Assembly (NCBI GenBank): GCA_018266455.1
Contig: JAFEAJ010000016.1
Span: 12,157 to 76,156 of the forward strand
Reading direction: 5' to 3'
Source of the DNA: Bacteroidota bacterium
Lineage (GTDB): Bacteria > Bacteroidota > Bacteroidia > Chitinophagales > Chitinophagaceae
Length of the DNA: 64,000 nt
The notes beneath the pieces were generated by a model. That model was not told the DNA's origin. It was given only the letters and a program-made list of their open reading frames with translations, and made no database searches. Position numbers and translations under genes: made by a program. Within the stretch, counting starts at the first letter, position 1. Each line of letters starts with the position of its first letter. This document shows positions 11,254 through 18,189 of this stretch, in pieces.

Positions 11254-11733
11254 ATGAAAAAAATAATTGTAACCGGGCTAATGGCTGCGTTGGTTATTGC
11301 ATGCGGCAGTAACAATTCCGGGGAGAACCAAGCTCCTTCTTCTCCCGCTTCATCTGATCAAAGTTCTTCATCCGGCAACCCTTCTTACGATCCGAACCGG
11401 GGAGCGGGGAAATTTACAAAAGTAGAAATATCTGCTAGCCTGGATGCAGCCAAAGCAGAAGCCGGAAGCAAAGTGTACTCGGTTAAATGCAGCGCCTGTC
11501 ATAAGCTGACTGATGAAAAATTAGTTGGCCCTGGATGGAAAGGCGTTACCAGCAGGCACAGTGCTGAATGGATCATGAATTTTGCTACTAACACAGATGA
11601 AATGCTTACAAAGGACCCAAAAGCGCAAGCACAATTAGAAATTTGCCTGGTGCGAATGCCAAACCAAAATTTAACAGATGATGATGCAAGGAATGTATAT
11701 GAGTTTATGCGAAAAAATGATGGGATAAAATAG
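11254..11733 (+). CDS. Monoheme cytochrome c lipoprotein of the nos cluster
   Basis: Lipobox VIAC; CSACH heme motif; VGPGW; distal Met candidate in LVRMP. Confidence 0.9.
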   Translation: MKKIIVTGLMAALVIACGSNNSGENQAPSSPASSDQSSSSGNPSYDPNRGAGKFTKVEISASLDAAKAEAGSKVYSVKCSACHKLTDEKLVGPGWKGVTSRHSAEWIMNFATNTDEMLTKDPKAQAQLEICLVRMPNQNLTDDDARNVYEFMRKNDGIK

Positions 11734-11792
11734 TAAGAAATGTTTCAGTTAATCAGTAAATTATTTTTTGACCTTCAATAATGTATTTCAAT

Positions 11793-13784
11793 ATGAAAAA
11801 AAATCAAGTATTGCCATTATATGTTTTAGCAGCAGTTGTTCTGCTGGGAACATATTCTTGCAAACCAAGAAACGCAGGCAGCGCTGTTACTTCAGGAGCT
11901 GCTGAGAAAGCTTATGTAGCCCCGGGAAAATATGATGAGTTCTATAATTTTGTTTCTGGCGGTTTCAGCGGGCAAATGAGTGTTTATGGCATCCCCTCAG
12001 GGAGGTTGCTTCGCGTAATCCCGGTATTCTCTGTTGACCCGGAGAAAGGTTATGGCTATTCAGAAGAAACAAAACCTATGCTGAATACATCTCATGGCTT
12101 TGTTCCATGGGATGACCTTCACCATACTGAACTTTCACAAACAAATGGAGAAATTGACGGACGATGGGTTTTCGGCAACGCTAATAATACCCCTCGTGTT
12201 GCACGGCTCGATCTTACTACGTTTTCTACCGCTGAAATTATTGAGCTGCCTAATAGCGCAGGCAACCACTCTTCCCCTTTTATTACCGAAAACACAGAAT
12301 ATGTAGTAGCAGGAACAAGGTTCAGTGTCCCACCGGATAATGTGAACGGTGATGTTCCTATCAATACATACAAGAAAAATTTTAAAGGCTACCTCAGCTT
12401 TATCAGTATTGGCAAAGAAGGCCAGATGGATATTGCATTCCAGATCCAATGCCCTGGGGTGGACTTTGATTTAAGCCATGCAGGCAAAGCTAAATCGCAC
12501 GACTGGTTTTTCTTCACGTGCTATAACAGCGAACGGGCAAATACCTTGCTGGAAGTGAACGCCTCTCAAAAAGACAAAGATTTTATTCTTGCTTTGAACT
12601 GGAAAAAAGCGGAAGAGTATGTAAAAGCAGGCAAAGGAAAGAAAGTGGCAGTTAAATATGCCCACAACGTTTATAACGAAAAAACACACACTGCCACTTC
12701 TGAAATCAGGAATGAAGTAACTGTTCTGGATTCAAAAGATTTTTCTGATCTGTGCTATTTCATTCCCTGCCCCAAATCACCTCATGGTTGTGATGTTGAC
12801 CCGACAGGAGAATATATAGTAGGGAGCGGGAAACTGGCAGCGCTGATCCCTGTTTTCAGTTTTGATAAATTGCAAAAAGCAATTGCCAACAAAGAATTTG
12901 ATGGCAATTATGAGGGCATCCCTGTTGTGAAATACGAGTCAGCATTGTATGGAGAAGTGCAGAAACCTGGCCTTGGCCCCTTGCATACCGAGTTCGATGG
13001 GAAGGGCAACGCTATTACTTCCTTTTTCGTTTCTTCAGAGCTGGTGAAATGGAATATTAAAGATTTGAAAGTCCTTGACAGAGTGCCCACTTATTATTCT
13101 GTAGGCCACCTTTGCATACCAGGCGGCGATACCAGAAAGCCAAATGCAAAATATGTGATCGCTTATAACAAAATTACAAAAGACCGCTACTTGCCAACAG
13201 GGCCTGAACTGGCTCAAAGTGCGCAATTGTTTGATATCACCGGTGATAAAATGCAGTTGATCCTTGACTTCCCTACCATTGGAGAACCTCACTATGCACA
13301 GGCTGTATCTGCCGACCTGATAAAAAGCAAGTCAGTGAAATTTTTCAACATCAACGATAACGCCAATCCTTACGTGTCAAAAGGGGAGCCCGAAGCAAAA
13401 GTTGTTCGTGAAGGAAATAAAGTGCATGTGTACATAACATCTATCCGCTCGCACTTTAACCCTGATAATATAGAAGGCATTAAAATTGGCGATGAAGTGT
13501 ATTTCCACGTAACAAACCTTGAACAGGACTGGGACATACCTCACGGGTTTGCGGTTAAAGGAGCGCCAAACGGGGAGCTGCTGATTATGCCCGGCAGTAC
13601 CCAAACACTGAAATGGGTGCCCGACAGAGTGGGGATATTCCCCTTCTACTGTACTGATTTCTGCAGCGCTTTGCACCAGGAAATGCAAGGCTATGCAAGG
13701 GTTTCTCCGGCAGGCAGCACTGTGCCGCTAATGTTTAGTACCGGCAAAAACCTGCCCCCATCAGACTCAACTTCAGCAAAATGA
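11793..13784 (+). CDS. nosZ: Nitrous oxide reductase, clade II (Sec-dependent)
   Basis: CuZ His motifs DDLHH, GNHSS, SPHG, PLHT, EPHY; CuA motifs PHGF and YCTDFCSALHQEM; no twin-Arg; lipobox-like GTYSC. Start taken at MKKNQ. Confidence 0.97.
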   Translation: MKKNQVLPLYVLAAVVLLGTYSCKPRNAGSAVTSGAAEKAYVAPGKYDEFYNFVSGGFSGQMSVYGIPSGRLLRVIPVFSVDPEKGYGYSEETKPMLNTSHGFVPWDDLHHTELSQTNGEIDGRWVFGNANNTPRVARLDLTTFSTAEIIELPNSAGNHSSPFITENTEYVVAGTRFSVPPDNVNGDVPINTYKKNFKGYLSFISIGKEGQMDIAFQIQCPGVDFDLSHAGKAKSHDWFFFTCYNSERANTLLEVNASQKDKDFILALNWKKAEEYVKAGKGKKVAVKYAHNVYNEKTHTATSEIRNEVTVLDSKDFSDLCYFIPCPKSPHGCDVDPTGEYIVGSGKLAALIPVFSFDKLQKAIANKEFDGNYEGIPVVKYESALYGEVQKPGLGPLHTEFDGKGNAITSFFVSSELVKWNIKDLKVLDRVPTYYSVGHLCIPGGDTRKPNAKYVIAYNKITKDRYLPTGPELAQSAQLFDITGDKMQLILDFPTIGEPHYAQAVSADLIKSKSVKFFNINDNANPYVSKGEPEAKVVREGNKVHVYITSIRSHFNPDNIEGIKIGDEVYFHVTNLEQDWDIPHGFAVKGAPNGELLIMPGSTQTLKWVPDRVGIFPFYCTDFCSALHQEMQGYARVSPAGSTVPLMFSTGKNLPPSDSTSAK

Positions 13785-13857: not shown

Positions 13858-14427
13858 TTTATGAAAAATATTTATCTGGTCTTGACATTGTTTGTGGCCT
13901 TCAATATTTTTTCGTGCAGTAATGAACCTGAAAAACAACCCGAACAGGCTACAAACACTCAGCCGCCTGCGAGCGGCGGGCAGGAAAATGTAAAAGATGA
14001 TGAGTCGCAAAAAGATGTTGTGAAAGCGGCCATGGGATCCAAAGACCATACCACTTTGGTTGCAGCAATCAAACAAGCCGATTTGGTTACCACGCTTTCA
14101 AATGCCGGGCCATTCACCGTTTTTGCGCCCACCAATGCCGCTTTTGATAAACTTCCGGCAGGCACTGTCGATGGCCTGATGAAACCTGAAAAAAAAGAGG
14201 CCCTGACGAATATCTTAGAATATCATGTAACCGTGGGAGTGCTGAAACCTGAAAGCTTTGCCGACGGCCAAAGCCTGGGAATGGTGAATGGTGATAATGT
14301 GAAGGTGACCATAAAAGACGGAAAGGTAATGCTGAACAATTCGGCAACTATAACAGCTTCTATACCGGTTTCAAACGGCATTATTCACGTTGTTGATGCC
14401 GTGCTATTGCCACCTGAAAAAAAATAA
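13858..14427 (+). CDS. Fasciclin (FAS1) domain lipoprotein
   Basis: FTVFAPTNAAF, ILEYHV and NGIIHVVDAVL FAS1 motifs; lipobox IFSC. Confidence 0.92.
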   Translation, partial: FMKNIYLVLTLFVAFNIFSCSNEPEKQPEQATNTQPPASGGQENVKDDESQKDVVKAAMGSKDHTTLVAAIKQADLVTTLSNAGPFTVFAPTNAAFDKLPAGTVDGLMKPEKKEALTNILEYHVTVGVLKPESFADGQSLGMVNGDNVKVTIKDGKVMLNNSATITASIPVSNGIIHVVDAVLLPPEKK

Positions 14428-14459: not shown

Positions 14460-15065
14460 ATGGAAAAAGGCAAGTTAAGCCCCATCGTTAGGATACTTCT
14501 GTTAGCCGGTGCAATAGCGCTAACAGTAAGCATTTTTGTCCCGATATGGCAAATTGATTTAGATGCTCCGCAATATCCAGAAGGGCTGACCCTGCTCATA
14601 TTCAGTAATAAATTAGGGGGCAATGTGGATATCGTGAACGGGCTTAACCATTATATCGGGATGAAGACCCTGCATGCTGAAGACTTTATTGAATTCACCG
14701 TACTCCCTTACCTGATTGGTTTTTTTGCATTTGCTTTTTTGCTCACATCACTTATTGCAAAAAAGAAACTGTTATATGTGTTACTGATTGTTTTCATCCT
14801 TTTTGGAATTGTGGCAATATTTGATTTCTGGAGATGGGAATATAATTACGGACATAACCTAAACCCGGAAGCGGCAATTATAGTGCCGGGCATGACCTAC
14901 CAGCCACCTTTAATAGGGTTTAAACAATTGCTTAATTTTGGTGCTTATTCCATTCCTGCGCTTGGGGGATGGTTGTTTATAAGCTCAGGAATATTGCTCG
15001 TGATCAGCGTTTTTCTTTCAACAAAAAAAAAAAGTTCAACCCGGCATTTGAAAAATCTTCAATAA
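14460..15065 (+). CDS. nosB: NosB-type membrane protein of clade II nos clusters (possibly the N-terminal half of a NosB-NosL fusion)
   Basis: WQIDLDAPQYPEGL, NGLNHYIGMK and YNYGHNLNP motifs; about 4 TM segments; sits between nosZ and nosL. Confidence 0.78.
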   Translation: MEKGKLSPIVRILLLAGAIALTVSIFVPIWQIDLDAPQYPEGLTLLIFSNKLGGNVDIVNGLNHYIGMKTLHAEDFIEFTVLPYLIGFFAFAFLLTSLIAKKKLLYVLLIVFILFGIVAIFDFWRWEYNYGHNLNPEAAIIVPGMTYQPPLIGFKQLLNFGAYSIPALGGWLFISSGILLVISVFLSTKKKSSTRHLKNLQ

Positions 15066-15481
15066 TAGTACCTGGCTTGCTGTTGATGATCAGCCTCAAC
15101 AGTTGCAACCCGGGACCGCAACCCATTGCGCCAGGAAAAGACAATTGCGCATTCTGCAAAATGATGGTTACTGATTTGCGCTATTGTTCAGAAATAGTAA
15201 CTAAAAAAGGAAAGACCTATAAGTTTGATGACCCGCATTGCCTGATGTCTTTCCTTCATGCGAGCGAAGTTAAACAAGGTGAAATCCGGGACATTTACTT
15301 TGCAGACTTTACCGATAACCGACATTTCATTAAGGCAGGCGAAGCCGTTTTTTTTCAAAGCGATTCGCTGGCAACCCCCATGAACGGCAATATTGCAGCT
15401 TTTACAAATACACAAACCCTTCAGCAGGCGATGAAAAACCATGACGGCAAAATTTTGCATTGGAACGACATCAATAAATGA
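14969..15481 (+). CDS. nosL: NosL copper chaperone; 5' end uncertain (see A11 finding)
   Basis: CAFCKMMV, KFDDPHCL and TPMNGNI motifs; lipobox-like LNSC. Confidence 0.85.
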   Translation: MVVYKLRNIARDQRFSFNKKKKFNPAFEKSSIIVPGLLLMISLNSCNPGPQPIAPGKDNCAFCKMMVTDLRYCSEIVTKKGKTYKFDDPHCLMSFLHASEVKQGEIRDIYFADFTDNRHFIKAGEAVFFQSDSLATPMNGNIAAFTNTQTLQQAMKNHDGKILHWNDINK

Positions 15482-16713
15482 AAAAAATATTATTATACGC
15501 ATTGCTTTTCTGCACCTGCTTTTCATTGTATGCAAATACGATAAAAGTAGGCCGGAACGAAAATATCTCAACTATCGCCAAAGGAATTGCGCTAGCCGCA
15601 AATGGAGATACTGTGCTGGTTGGCCCGGGGCTATATAAAGAGCATGGCCTCATAGTCAACAAATCAATTTTGCTGAAAGGGGCCAATAATCCGGTCATTG
15701 ATGGAGAAAACAAATTTGAAGTGGTCGCAATCACTGTCAGCAATGTTACTATAGAGGGGTTTACGGTTATCAATTCAGGTTCTTCTTCAGTAGAAGATTA
15801 TGCAGGGATCAAGATCATCAACAGTAAAAATGTCATCATCAGGAACAATATCCTTCAGAACAATTTTTTCGGAATTTATTCCCAACATGGCACCCATTGC
15901 AGGATTGAAAATAATCGCATCAGTTCAACTGCTGTGTCGGAGCAACTGAGTGGCAATGGCATTCATTGCTGGAAGAGCGATAGCATGTACATTATCGGGA
16001 ACAAAATGAATGGCAACAGGGACGGGATCTATTTTGAATTCGTTACCAATTCTGTCATCAGCAGAAACGAGTCTTTCAAAAATGTACGCTACGGACTGCA
16101 TTTTATGTTCTCCAACAACGATGCTTATATCAGCAACCTCTTTCACAACAATGGTTCCGGTGTAGCAGTAATGTATTCGCATGGGGTAAGCATGATCCGC
16201 AATTTCTTTTTTGAAAACTGGGGAGATGCAGCTTATGGGCTGCTGCTGAAAGAAATTGCTGACAGCTATATTGATAACAATTCATTTGAAAAAAATACCA
16301 GCGGGATTGTGATGGAAGGAGCAAGCCGCATCCAGGTGCAGCGTAATTCTTTCAATAGAAATGGCACAGCATTGCGCATACAAGCCAGTTGCATGGACAT
16401 CGATATCAAAAAAAACAATTTTATCGGCAACACTTTCGACGTGTCTACCAACGGGTCGCTGGTGCTGAATTCCTTTAAAGGAAATTTTTGGGACAAATAT
16501 GAAGGCTATGATTTGAACAGAGATGGCATCGGCGATGTGCCATACCGGCCGGTAAGCTTATATTCTATGATCATTGAGAAAAATCCGCCTGCCATGATTT
16601 TATTCAGGAGCTTTATGTCGTCATTGCTGGATAAAACCGAAAGGGTACTGCCCGGTCTGACACCCGAAGCGCTAAAGGACGATAACCCATTAATGAAACC
16701 ATTAAAGTTATGA
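15478..16713 (+). CDS. nosD: NosD periplasmic CuZ maturation protein (parallel beta-helix)
   Basis: GIHCWKS, RDGIYFEF, RYGLHFMFS, GNFWDKYEGYDLNRDGIGDVPY. Confidence 0.93.
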   Translation: MKKILLYALLFCTCFSLYANTIKVGRNENISTIAKGIALAANGDTVLVGPGLYKEHGLIVNKSILLKGANNPVIDGENKFEVVAITVSNVTIEGFTVINSGSSSVEDYAGIKIINSKNVIIRNNILQNNFFGIYSQHGTHCRIENNRISSTAVSEQLSGNGIHCWKSDSMYIIGNKMNGNRDGIYFEFVTNSVISRNESFKNVRYGLHFMFSNNDAYISNLFHNNGSGVAVMYSHGVSMIRNFFFENWGDAAYGLLLKEIADSYIDNNSFEKNTSGIVMEGASRIQVQRNSFNRNGTALRIQASCMDIDIKKNNFIGNTFDVSTNGSLVLNSFKGNFWDKYEGYDLNRDGIGDVPYRPVSLYSMIIEKNPPAMILFRSFMSSLLDKTERVLPGLTPEALKDDNPLMKPLKL

Positions 16714-17417
16714 TCATTGCCAGTAATGTGTCGAAAAAATTTAAGAAGCTGACCGTTTTGGAAAACGTGTCGTTGAACTGTATAAAGGGAGAGTGCATCG
16801 CATTGATTGGCCCGAACGGCAGCGGCAAAACAACACTTATCAAAACGATCCTGGGCATGGTAGTGCCAGACAGTGGGTTTATAACCTTCAATGGCAGGAA
16901 TATTTTGCACGACTGGAAATACCGTTCACACATCGGCTATATGCCCCAAATAGGCCGTTATCCTGATAACATGACAATAGGCCAGGTGCTGAGTATGATG
17001 AAAGACATTAGGGCACACAAAGAAAAAACCTTTGATGAAGAACTGATCTATGCATTCGGATTAAACATATTGCTAAATAAACGGATGCGCACATTATCAG
17101 GTGGGACGAGGCAAAAGGTGAGCGCTTGCCTTGCCTTCCTGTTCGATCCGGAAGTGCTCATACTGGATGAGCCGACTGCAGGGCTGGACCCGCTCTCTTC
17201 TGAACTTTTAAAAGACAAGATCAGGAAAGAAAAACAAAAGGGCAAGCTTATTATGATCACTTCGCATATCCTTAGTGAACTGGACGACCTTATCACACAG
17301 GTAATTTATATGCAGGAGGGGAAATTGGTATTTCACAAAAATATTGATGACCTGCGTAAGGAAACAGGAGAACAGAAACTGTCAAAAGCCATTGCATCCG
17401 TTATGATAAAAAAATAA
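16710..17417 (+). CDS. nosF: NosF ABC ATPase
   Basis: Walker A GPNGSGKT, signature LSGG, Walker B ILDEP; overlaps the nosD stop. Confidence 0.9.
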   Translation: MIIASNVSKKFKKLTVLENVSLNCIKGECIALIGPNGSGKTTLIKTILGMVVPDSGFITFNGRNILHDWKYRSHIGYMPQIGRYPDNMTIGQVLSMMKDIRAHKEKTFDEELIYAFGLNILLNKRMRTLSGGTRQKVSACLAFLFDPEVLILDEPTAGLDPLSSELLKDKIRKEKQKGKLIMITSHILSELDDLITQVIYMQEGKLVFHKNIDDLRKETGEQKLSKAIASVMIKK

Positions 17418-17421
17418 ATGC

Positions 17422-18189
17422 ATGATAAAAATTGTTAAATATGTTATTGTGGATATCCTGCGAAATAAAATCGTAATCGCTTACACAGCCTTCCTGCTTG
17501 CGATTTCTCTGAGTATTTTTAACCTGGAAGACAATACTTCAAAAGGCTTGCTAAGCCTGCTGAATATCATATTGATCATCATCCCGCTGGTATCCATTAT
17601 TTTTTCTACCATTTATGTCTACAATAGCTCTGAGTTCCTAGAACTGCTGGTGAGCCAGCCATTGAAGAGAAAGAATATATGGATGAGCCTTTTTGCAGGC
17701 CTTGCTATTTCTCTTTCGTTTGCATTTTGTATAGGAGCTGGGATACCAATTATTTTATATGCAGCATCTTCCACAGGGTTCGTGATGCTTGGAATGGGCC
17801 TCATCTTATCCATCGTGTTCGCTTCGGTAGCCATGTTAAGCGCAGTAATGATCCGCGATAAAGCCAAGGGGATCGGCATTTCCATTTTACTGTGGCTGTA
17901 TTTTTCATTGCTGTTCGATGGGATGGTTTTGTTCATATTGTTCCAGTTTGAAGATTATCCGCTGGAAAAAATAATGGTTGCAATTACTGCATTTAACCCA
18001 ATAGATCTTGGGCGGATCCTGATTTTGCTAAAAATGGATATTTCAGCGATGATGGGCTATACGGGAGCAATATTCAGGGATTTTTTTGGCACCGGAACCG
18101 GGTTTTTTATCGCATTGCTTGTGATGCTGCTTTGGGTTGCAGTACCTGCCTGGCTATCTGTCAGGACCTTTAACAGGAAAGACCTGTAA
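17422..18189 (+). CDS. nosY: NosY ABC permease
   Basis: 6-7 TM segments; ELLVSQPLKR and FNPIDLGRI; follows nosF. Confidence 0.87.
   Translation: MIKIVKYVIVDILRNKIVIAYTAFLLAISLSIFNLEDNTSKGLLSLLNIILIIIPLVSIIFSTIYVYNSSEFLELLVSQPLKRKNIWMSLFAGLAISLSFAFCIGAGIPIILYAASSTGFVMLGMGLILSIVFASVAMLSAVMIRDKAKGIGISILLWLYFSLLFDGMVLFILFQFEDYPLEKIMVAITAFNPIDLGRILILLKMDISAMMGYTGAIFRDFFGTGTGFFIALLVMLLWVAVPAWLSVRTFNRKDL

What the first reader, a model, noticed from the sequence alone, without database searches (positions are those of the whole stretch)
15023..15033. A11 run at the nosB/nosL junction: one extra A gives a 340-aa NosB-NosL fusion
Seen: nosB (ends 15065) and the nosL ORF overlap by 97 nt, with nosL in the -1 frame. 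The only nosL ATG close to its lipobox gives a 7-residue leader (MISLNSC), too short for a signal peptide. Adding one A, or a -1 slip on A-AAA-AAA, gives ...LSTKKKKFNPAFEKSSIIVPGLLLMISLNSC..., a single 1023-nt ORF. Inference: the native gene is a fusion. The split is then a homopolymer sequencing error, a phase-variable switch on copper delivery to NosZ, or programmed slippage producing both NosB and the fusion. I saw no convincing frameshift-stimulating structure.
Basis: partly seen in the sequence, partly recalled or inferred. Interest (0 to 1): 0.65.

Follow-up and report, generated by a model that had tools for sequence, protein, structure and literature searches.

The report
Frameshifted NosB-NosL fusion gene (A11)
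A run of eleven A's breaks, by one base, a gene that in this bacterium's nearest relatives makes a single membrane-protein-plus-copper-chaperone (NosB-NosL) for nitrous-oxide reductase; the break looks real rather than an assembly slip, but it is an ordinary homopolymer frameshift in a fusion gene that is already known.

Summary
A11 lies at 15023-15033 and is the longest homopolymer in the window. A 201-aa NosB-like ORF (14460-15065) overlaps a NosL ORF (14969-15481) by 97 nt, with NosL in the -1 frame. One extra A gives a 340-aa open frame.

That fusion matches at least 7,987 database proteins. The best 120 are 325-363 aa with 93-100% coverage. Of 105 family genomes with the gene, 80 carry an uninterrupted fused frame and 21 carry two genes. 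All 20 split relatives examined have a proper NosL start and lipoprotein signal peptide; the window has neither. It nests (SH-aLRT 96) among fused sequences. The NosB-NosL fusion is already in the literature (PMC9697520).

A11 is probably genuine. Four other assemblies of the same strain show exactly A11: Logan contigs from SRR24111734 and SRR24111674, one further Logan contig and MAG GCA_018266495.1. Logan contigs of a sister run correct a different homopolymer frameshift in this assembly.

Nothing supports a programmed site. Relatives' linker A-runs are 8 or shorter, and no downstream structure stands out.

The likeliest reading is a recent strain-specific -1 frameshift. Some full-length protein may still arise by slippage on A11, which is inferred, not shown. 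Earlier scan notes on other genomes also recorded single-ORF NosB-NosL fusions.

The parts
15023..15033 (+). A11 homopolymer in the Lys-rich cytoplasmic linker. It is the site, or lies within 5 nt of the site, of the 1-nt frame break between the NosB and NosL parts.
   Evidence: The run is identical in four other assemblies.
14460..15065 (+). NosB-like 4-TM membrane domain ORF (201 aa). The last 10 residues, SSTRHLKNLQ, are out-of-frame tail.
   Evidence: It carries the motifs LNHYIGM and YGHN (PMC9697520). An AF2 model of the fused relative P0003 shows helices at 8-26, 77-99, 102-132 and 168-188.
15023..15481 (+). NosL part in the -1 frame: linker KKKKFNPAFEKSS, signal-peptide-like helix IIVPGLLLMISL, lipobox LNSC (Cys codon 15104-15106), then the NosL copper-chaperone domain.
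   Evidence: PF05573. PDB 7OG7 NosL matches by sequence and by fold, TM 0.78. All residues invariant across the family are kept.
14969..14971 (+). First ATG of the NosL frame, 97 nt inside nosB. It would give a 46-residue leader, and its start context is poor.
   Evidence: Start-context score -5.45, the 1.4th percentile of true starts in this genome.
15086..15088 (+). ATG giving the leader MISLNSC. This is the start that gene callers chose for the 131-aa NosL. The leader is too short for a signal peptide.
   Evidence: Start-context score -6.07, the 1st percentile.
11781..13784 (+). Clade II Sec-type nosZ, intact.
   Evidence: TIGR04246, 920 bits.
15478..18189 (+). nosD, nosF and nosY, intact and tightly packed downstream.
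   Evidence: Gene calls in the Logan and NCBI copies agree.

Best explanation
This is a strain-specific, genuine one-base frameshift in a nosBL gene. That gene is the known fusion of the clade II membrane protein NosB with the copper chaperone NosL. The break lies in or right next to an A11 tract that encodes the Lys-rich cytoplasmic loop between NosB helix 4 and the signal-peptide-like helix plus lipobox that precede NosL.

Standard decoding gives a complete 4-TM NosB with a 10-residue foreign tail. NosL is left without a usable start or export signal. Any exported NosL must therefore come from products that regain the frame on the A run. One route is RNA polymerase stuttering, giving A12 or A9 mRNAs. 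The other is a -1 ribosomal slip on A-AAA-AAA. Either gives the 339-340-aa fusion.

Shown here: the fusion is the norm in the nearest relatives, A11 is reproducible, there is no independent NosL start, and the genome has no second nosL. Inferred from what is known of A runs of 9 or more in other bacteria (PMC1088944, PMC5009743): some full-length protein is made by slippage. Neither shown nor suggested: that this slippage is a selected, programmed device.
For: Fusion is the norm:
- At least 7,987 hits to the 340-aa reconstruction. The top 120 are 325-363 aa with 93-100% coverage and 53-71% identity.
- 80 of 105 family genomes carry an uninterrupted fused frame.
- The window sits in a starred clade (SH-aLRT 96) with four fused sequences.
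- Homology runs unbroken across the junction, and all family-invariant residues are kept.

A11 is real:
- Logan contigs from SRR24111734 and SRR24111674, one further Logan contig that was not displayed, and the NCBI MAG GCA_018266495.1 carry the same 201-aa ORF. The three fetched copies read exactly A11 and are 100% identical to the window over 2.9-6.6 kb.
- Neither the A12 nor the A9 fused protein is among about 15 billion stored sequences.
- At least 10 other A/T runs of 10-11 nt in this genome sit in frame inside long ORFs.
- Logan contigs of a sister run (SRR24111730) read A8, giving an intact 2054-aa protein, where this assembly has an A9 frameshift in an alpha-2-macroglobulin gene. Logan assemblies of this strain can therefore differ from this assembly at a homopolymer, yet the Logan nos contigs agree with it on A11.

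No independent NosL:
- The candidate starts at 14969, 15083 and 15086 score at the 1st-2nd percentile of true starts and TTG 15077 at the 12th. The nosB, nosD and nosY starts score at the 70th-97th.
- All 20 split relatives have their own start plus a lipoprotein signal peptide.
- The genome, 99.7% complete, has only one NosL.

Recent or still under constraint:
- NosL-domain identity to P0003 and P0004 is 68% and 65%. P0003 versus P0004 is 66%.
Against: No reads could be inspected, so a systematic A12-to-A11 miscall, or a mixed population, is not formally excluded. All the other assemblies are 100% identical and may share technology, and the Logan runs may share samples with this assembly. Only the 2021 MAG is plausibly independent data. 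This assembly differs from Logan contigs of the same strain at one other poly-A tract, which shows that homopolymer lengths in it are not beyond doubt. Slippage rescue is inferred from other organisms. In this genome, A/T runs of 9 or more are only mildly depleted in ORFs, which gives no sign that slippage is strong here. The missing base need not be in the run. A 1-nt loss in the TC after AGT (15036-15037) or an A9 ancestor would fit the relatives' KKKS-N motif equally well.
Confidence: 0.62

Rival explanations
1. Sequencing or assembly error. The organism really carries an in-frame run (A12 or A9) and an ordinary fused nosBL gene.
For: The break sits at the longest homopolymer in the window. 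All conserved residues downstream are intact, and the NosL domain shows no accelerated divergence. The same assembly has an A9 where Logan contigs of the same strain have A8 in an alpha-2-macroglobulin gene.
Against: Four other assemblies carry the same split ORFs, and the three that were fetched read A11. They include Logan per-run assemblies and an older MAG from a separate deposit. No A12 or A9 version of the protein exists in the 15-billion-sequence collection. Other 10-11-nt runs in this genome are in frame.
Confidence: 0.13
2. Phase variation. The tract toggles between A11 (NosB only) and A12 or A9 (NosB-L) by replication slippage, switching copper delivery to NosZ on and off within the population.
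For: A tracts of 9 or more are hypermutable (PMC1088944). Another poly-A tract differs by one base between assemblies of this same strain. The frame break leaves a complete NosB.
Against: Every assembly seen has A11, and no alternative allele is on record. Relatives keep the linker run at 8 or shorter, so the tract is not a conserved contingency locus. Contigs hide minority variants, so this remains untested rather than refuted.
Confidence: 0.1
3. Selected recoding. Transcriptional slippage or -1 ribosomal frameshifting on A-AAA-AAA-AAA-A is used to make NosB and NosB-L in a fixed ratio.
For: The heptamer A-AAA-AAA is a classic -1 slippery site. The -1 product equals the conserved fusion. The zero-frame product is a complete NosB resembling the stand-alone NosB of split relatives.
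Against: The frameshift is not conserved. All nearest relatives, and 80 of 105 family genomes, are plainly in frame. Their linker A-runs are 8 or shorter or interrupted. No downstream structure exceeds shuffled controls, with z between 0 and -1.25.
Confidence: 0.06
4. Incipient gene fission. The two ORFs now work as separate nosB and nosL genes. NosL would be translated from ATG 14969 with a 46-residue lipoprotein signal peptide.
For: Fused and split forms interchanged at least 6 times in the family tree, with at least 3 changes forced by well-supported branches. One split relative (L054) appears to start NosL from an ATG inside the nosB 3' end in the other frame. The leader from 14969 has basic residues, a hydrophobic core and the lipobox. 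A TAnnTTTG motif lies at 14933.
Against: The context of ATG 14969 is at the 1.4th percentile of true starts in this genome and looks like an internal ATG. The TAATTTTG motif is forced by the conserved L-N-F-G codons and is expected by chance at about 0.3 per kb. Ribosomes translating nosB would cover the site.
Confidence: 0.07

Closest known systems
NosB-NosL fusion protein (NosB-L) of clade II nos clusters, reported for Dyadobacter fermentans and for Flavobacterium azooxidireducens, F. denitrificans and F. crocinum (PMC9697520, citing Hein et al. 2017 and van Spanning 2011)
   Same: [quoted passage not shown] The frame-restored length of 339-340 aa matches.
   Different: Here the two parts are out of frame by one base at an A11 tract, so the fusion is not encoded by standard decoding.
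Separate nosB and nosL genes, as in Wolinella succinogenes, other flavobacteria and 21 of 105 genomes of this family
   Same: The zero-frame product ends just after helix 4 with a Lys-rich tail, as stand-alone NosB does.
   Different: Stand-alone nosL genes have their own ATG or GTG, often in an ATGA overlap, and a 15-25-residue lipoprotein signal peptide. The window has no credible start and groups with fused genes.
Frameshifted genes rescued by transcriptional slippage at poly(A) tracts, including disrupted ORFs with 9A/9T runs and Thermus dnaX (PMC1088944; review PMC5009743)
   Same: A run of at least 9 A's sits exactly where the frame must change. The out-of-frame downstream part is fully conserved.
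   Different: No RNA or protein evidence exists here, and the organism's slippage propensity is unknown. Long runs are only mildly depleted in its ORFs.
-1 programmed ribosomal frameshifting on A-AAA-AAG or A-AAA-AAA (E. coli dnaX, IS3-family transposases)
   Same: Slippery A-AAA-AAA heptamers, and a -1 frame that carries the functional downstream domain.
   Different: No stimulatory downstream structure. The frameshift is not conserved in relatives.

Membership tests
NosL (PF05573) copper chaperone | Pfam NosL domain above the gathering score | tested here: met
   50.5 bits against a cut-off of 24, residues 57-169 of the 170-aa ORF. The only copy in the genome.
NosL (PF05573) copper chaperone | Fold and sequence similarity to solved NosL | tested here: met
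   phmmer to 7OG7, E 0.0024. The AF2 model of the fused relative P0003 matches 7OG7 with E 7.5e-8 and TM 0.78, and matches the NosL chains of NosDFYL complexes. This was tested on the 71%-identical relative, not on the window protein itself.
NosL (PF05573) copper chaperone | Lipoprotein: signal peptide plus lipobox Cys | tested here: inconclusive
   The lipobox L-N-S-C and a hydrophobic helix are present, and the Cys is invariant in 19 and 43 aligned relatives. As sequenced, no start codon supplies an N-terminal signal peptide. Lipidation is not testable in silico.
NosB (clade II nos membrane protein) | Polytopic membrane protein encoded next to clade II nosZ | tested here: met
   The gene lies two genes downstream of a Sec-type nosZ, TIGR04246. 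Four TM helices appear in the model of the relative.
NosB (clade II nos membrane protein) | Conserved stretches LNHYIGM and YGHN (van Spanning alignment, as quoted in PMC9697520) | tested here: met
   LNHYIGM at residues 62-68 and YGHN at 130-133 of the 201-aa ORF. Both are invariant in relatives.
NosB (clade II nos membrane protein) | Required for N2O respiration (Wolinella nosB deletion) | not testable with these tools
   Literature only (PMC9697520, citing Hein 2017).
NosB-L fusion | NosB and NosL parts in one continuous reading frame | tested here: not met
   As sequenced, the frames differ by -1 at or near A11. They are continuous only after adding 1 nt or removing 2 nt. The nearest relatives meet the feature.
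Programmed -1 frameshift / recoding site | Slippery sequence allowing re-pairing in the -1 frame | tested here: met
   ACA AAA AAA AAA AGT in the zero frame.
Programmed -1 frameshift / recoding site | Frameshift and slippery site conserved among orthologues | tested here: not met
   The nearest relatives and 80 of 105 family genomes are in frame. Linker A-runs are 8 or shorter in the 19 fused relatives measured, and shorter or interrupted in the closest three.
Programmed -1 frameshift / recoding site | Stimulatory downstream RNA structure | tested here: not met
   Folds of 60-125 nt downstream give z-scores from 0.00 to -1.25 against shuffles.
Homopolymer phase-variable (contingency) locus | Tract-length heterogeneity within or between populations | not testable with these tools
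The window and the three other assembly copies that were fetched show A11. Pattern scans of JGI metagenomes and GTDB genomes for run lengths of 8-14 found nothing.

The most novel reading that the evidence does not exclude
The A11 tract is not just a lesion. It would be a working switch or ratio-setter at the one point where nosB and nosL can be joined or separated. The Lys-rich, A-rich linker would act as an evolutionary toggle, consistent with at least 3-6 fused/split changes in the family. In this strain, RNA-polymerase or ribosome slippage on A11 would yield both free NosB and NosB-L. The fusion's internal lipobox would then be cut by Lgt/LspA to release lipidated NosL from a polytopic precursor.
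Probability: 0.08. Interest if true: 0.55.

Novelty: new member of a known kind. Interest (0 to 1): 0.27.

Why it matters
In practice, this locus should be annotated as a frameshifted nosBL, either a pseudogene or a slippage-dependent gene, rather than as two genes. Gene callers currently emit a "hypothetical protein" plus a 131-134-aa NosL that has no export signal. That annotation would wrongly count the strain as having a normal copper chaperone for NosZ.

Biologically, the strain is a natural test of whether NosL, or its tethering to NosB, is needed for clade II N2O reduction. NosZ, NosD, NosF, NosY and NosB are all intact, and there is no second nosL. If the strain still reduces N2O at low copper, then either slippage on A11 supplies enough NosB-L or NosL is dispensable.

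The family-wide pattern is a modest evolutionary point about how neighbouring membrane-protein and lipoprotein genes fuse and split. The two parts have been joined and separated repeatedly at a Lys-rich linker, and the fusion keeps the lipobox.

Tried and rejected
- Pattern scans for the flanks with a run of any length from 8 to 14, in JGI metagenome contigs and in GTDB genome contigs: 0 hits each. The window's own records are left out by design.
- Literature search for the MAG accession: 0 papers. The first nosB/nosL/Bacteroidetes query also gave 0.
- Genome-wide scan for homopolymer sites where a 1-nt change merges two ORFs of at least 100 codons: 79-86 candidates, nearly all ordinary gene junctions. 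Adding a start-context filter did not separate true frameshifts. Of the five candidates with runs of 9 or more that were inspected, only the A2M case was confirmed by homology.
- Exact look-up of the 1221-aa A2M N-fragment: not on record. The 827-aa C-fragment look-up worked.
- Downstream RNA structure as a frameshift stimulator: rejected.
- Internal promoter: the single TAnnTTTG at 14933 is explained by the conserved LNFG codons.
- Depletion of long A/T runs in ORFs, as a proxy for slippage propensity: weak trend only, from 0.78 to 0.63.
- Fold search for the NosB part: only weak claudin/TARP-like 4-TM matches (E 0.008-0.1, TM about 0.27). Not used for any claim.

Full report
**1. The observation.** The sequence at 15023-15033 is exactly eleven A's, flanked by C and G. 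It is the longest homopolymer in the window. The genome has only five A/T runs of 11 in 3.88 Mb. ORF 14460-15065 (201 aa) and ORF 14969-15481 (170 aa) overlap by 97 nt, and the second is in the -1 frame. The zero frame reads ACA AAA AAA AAA AGT TCA ... TAA, giving ...STKKKSSTRHLKNLQ*. The -1 frame reads AAC AAA AAA AAA AAG TTC AAC CCG, giving ...KKKKFNPAFEKSSIIVPGLLLMISLNSC. One extra A gives a 340-codon open frame. A -1 slip of Lys-tRNAs on A-AAA-AAA gives the same protein.

**2. The genes.** The locus is a compact clade II nos cluster. It holds cytochrome c (11254-11733), Sec-type NosZ (TIGR04246, 920 bits), a fasciclin protein, the two ORFs in question, NosD, NosF, NosY and a truncated globin.
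- The downstream ORF is NosL. It hits PF05573 at 50.5 bits and the solved NosL 7OG7.
- The upstream ORF has no Pfam or NCBIfam model. It carries LNHYIGM (62-68) and YGHN (130-133), the two blocks used in the literature to recognise NosB (PMC9697520).
- That paper also states that NosB is fused to NosL in Dyadobacter fermentans (citing Hein et al. 2017 and van Spanning 2011). It reports that some flavobacteria carry a NosB-L fusion while others carry two genes. The fusion itself is therefore known.

**3. Relatives.**
- *Database search.* The 340-aa reconstruction finds at least 7,987 proteins. The best 120 are 325-363 aa, cover 93-100% of the query at 53-71% identity, and are named NosL in Ferruginibacter, Hanamia, Sediminibacterium and other Chitinophagaceae. 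Homology is continuous through the junction, and every family-invariant residue is present in the window.
- *Family survey.* Among 200 genomes of the same family (151 genera), 105 have the gene. Of these, 80 have one uninterrupted frame of about 340 aa, 21 have two genes, one has an in-frame stop, and three are cut by contig ends (my count of its table).
- *Split relatives.* I fetched 20 of the 21 two-gene cases. All have a normal gene boundary. NosB ends in a Lys-rich tail just after helix 4. NosL starts with its own ATG (GTG in one case), often in an ATGA overlap, followed by a 15-25-residue lipoprotein signal peptide and lipobox.
- *Tree.* A maximum-likelihood tree of 62 sequences puts the window in a clade with four fused sequences, P0003-P0006 (SH-aLRT 96). 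It needs at least 6 fused/split changes, of which at least 3 are forced by well-supported branches.
- *Conclusion.* The ancestor of the window's gene was fused. Both architectures evidently work and have interconverted repeatedly.

**4. Anatomy of the junction.** An AlphaFold model of the closest fused relative P0003 (71% identical; mean pLDDT 76.7) shows helices at 8-26, 77-99, 102-132 and 168-188, a fifth helix at 197-212, and then a NosL fold (7OG7 TM 0.78). Lys clusters follow helices 2 and 4. By the positive-inside rule, which is an inference, the two conserved loops and NosL face the periplasm and the KKKK linker is cytoplasmic. The fifth helix plus L-x-S-C aligns with the signal peptide and lipobox of stand-alone NosL. 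Its Cys is invariant in the fused proteins. The frameshift therefore falls exactly in the equivalent of the signal peptide's n-region. Upstream of it lies a complete NosB. Downstream lies a NosL that lacks only a start codon.

**5. Independent NosL start.** I built a start-context log-odds model from 1,231 unambiguous starts of this genome, set against internal ATGs.

| Candidate NosL start | Score | Percentile among true starts |
|---|---|---|
| ATG 14969 | -5.45 | 1.4 |
| TTG 15077 | -1.05 | 11.7 |
| TTG 15083 | -4.62 | 2.0 |
| ATG 15086 | -6.07 | 1.0 |

The starts of nosB, nosD and nosY score at the 89th, 70th and 97th percentiles. The three downstream candidates leave leaders of at most 9 residues. 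ATG 14969 would give a 46-residue leader. That is not impossible, but nothing supports it. A TAATTTTG at 14933 resembles the Bacteroidota -7 box. It is dictated by the invariant L-N-F-G codons and is expected by chance at about 0.3 per kb. The genome is 99.7% complete and has no second NosL.

**6. Is A11 real?**
- *Other assemblies.* The exact 201-aa product and the short NosL calls occur on other contigs. These are Logan SRR24111734 (26.6 kb), Logan SRR24111674 (2.9 kb), one further Logan contig that was not shown, and the NCBI MAG GCA_018266495.1 (JAFEAK010000234.1). The three copies that were fetched are 100% identical to the window over 2.9-6.6 kb and read exactly A11. Neither the A12 nor the A9 fused protein is among about 15 billion stored sequences.
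- *Other long runs.* At least ten other A/T runs of 10-11 nt in this genome lie in frame inside long ORFs.
- *An unplanned control.* On contig C3, outside the window, an alpha-2-macroglobulin gene is split at an A9 run. Genus relatives have one frame of about 2,050 aa across the site. Logan contigs of the same strain (SRR24111730 and two more samples) read A8 and give an intact 2,054-aa protein. They differ from this assembly by that single base in 7,165 nt.
- *Reading the control.* This assembly's homopolymer lengths are not infallible, or the tracts are polymorphic. Logan assemblies of this strain do not simply reproduce this assembly, yet at nosBL they and the MAG agree with it.
- *Estimate.* I put the chance that A11 is the true majority genotype at about 0.8.

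**7. Programmed or accidental?** The closest fused relatives have AAA AAG AAA, AAG AAA AAA or A8 at this spot. In the 19 fused family genes measured, the longest linker A-run ranges from under 4 to 8 nt and never reaches 9. No fold downstream of the run exceeds shuffled controls, with z from 0.00 to -1.25. The frameshift is confined to this strain. These results argue against a conserved recoding device.

A runs of 9 or more do cause RNA-polymerase stuttering in many bacteria, and this can restore disrupted ORFs (PMC1088944; PMC5009743). A-AAA-AAA is also a classic -1 slippery site. Some full-length NosB-L is therefore likely to be made, but this is an inference. The NosL domain shows no excess divergence: 68% and 65% identity to P0003 and P0004, against 66% between those two. 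That fits either a recent lesion or continued expression.

**8. Where exactly is the missing base?** The frame can be restored by A12 (TKKKKFNPAF, 340 aa), by A9 (TKKKFNPAF, 339 aa), or by one extra base in the TC at 15036-15037 (TKKKSSNPAF). The relatives read KKKS-N, which is compatible with all three. The homopolymer is the likeliest site a priori, but this is not proven.

**9. Verdict.** The most likely state is a genuine, recent, strain-specific homopolymer frameshift in a known type of fusion gene. Function is possibly retained in part through slippage. Sequencing error, phase variation, selected recoding and incipient fission remain as minority rivals, and read, cDNA and protein data would separate them. 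The finding is useful for annotation and as a natural experiment on NosL. It is not a new kind of system.

Noticed in passing
window 15068-15106; alignments A1 and A2; loci L052-L071: Fused NosB-L proteins keep a signal-peptide-like fifth helix and an invariant lipobox Cys (L-x-S-C). These align with the signal peptide of stand-alone NosL. This suggests that the fusion is an internally processed, lipidated polytopic precursor, or that the Cys has another essential role.
   Followed up: partly
family tree of 62 sequences (loci L022-L071): Fused and split nosB/nosL architectures changed at least 6 times in Chitinophagaceae, with at least 3 changes forced by supported branches. Split forms usually overlap by ATGA in a different frame, so single-base indels in the A-rich Lys linker could toggle the two states.
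   Followed up: partly
G000 contig C3:28471-28479 (outside the window); L077: An alpha-2-macroglobulin gene is frameshifted at an A9 run in this assembly (1221 aa plus 827-838 aa). Logan contigs of the same strain (SRR24111730 and two more samples) read A8 and give an intact 2054-aa gene, with 1 gap and 0 mismatches in 7,165 nt. This is either an assembly error here or a poly-A length polymorphism.
   Followed up: yes
L004 (G018, same genus), about 1980-2075: Another genome of the genus has the NosB and NosL parts in different frames. There is no homopolymer at the break and no NosL start upstream of ...FMSMLLDSC. It looks like an independent disruption of the fused gene in the same linker.
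   Followed up: partly
L007 (G005, same genus): The NosL part changes frame near residue 285 at a G6 run (CTGGGGGGCG). The genome is a single-contig assembly scored 75% complete, so this is probably a long-read homopolymer error.
   Followed up: no
model m33ca9b093586 (P0003): The NosB part (4 TM helices plus short periplasmic strands) gives only weak Foldseek matches to claudin/TARP-type 4-TM proteins (E 0.008-0.1, TM about 0.27). The two most conserved periplasmic loops (NVDIxNGLNHYIGMK and AAIxVPGMxYQPPLIGFK) are modelled with pLDDT below 50.
   Followed up: no
window 11781 and 11793; 13852 and 13861: For nosZ, the second ATG (11793, MKKNQVL...) has a much better start context than 11781 (6.7 against 1.9). 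Logan gene calls give 663 aa rather than 667 aa. The fasciclin gene likewise has a better-scoring ATG at 13861.
   Followed up: partly
G000 C64:178331-178348 and C64:325706-326331 (outside the window): A C18 tract outside any long ORF. Separately, three A/T runs of 10-11 nt lie within about 630 nt inside long ORFs. All five 11-nt A/T runs of the genome lie in long ORFs.
   Followed up: no
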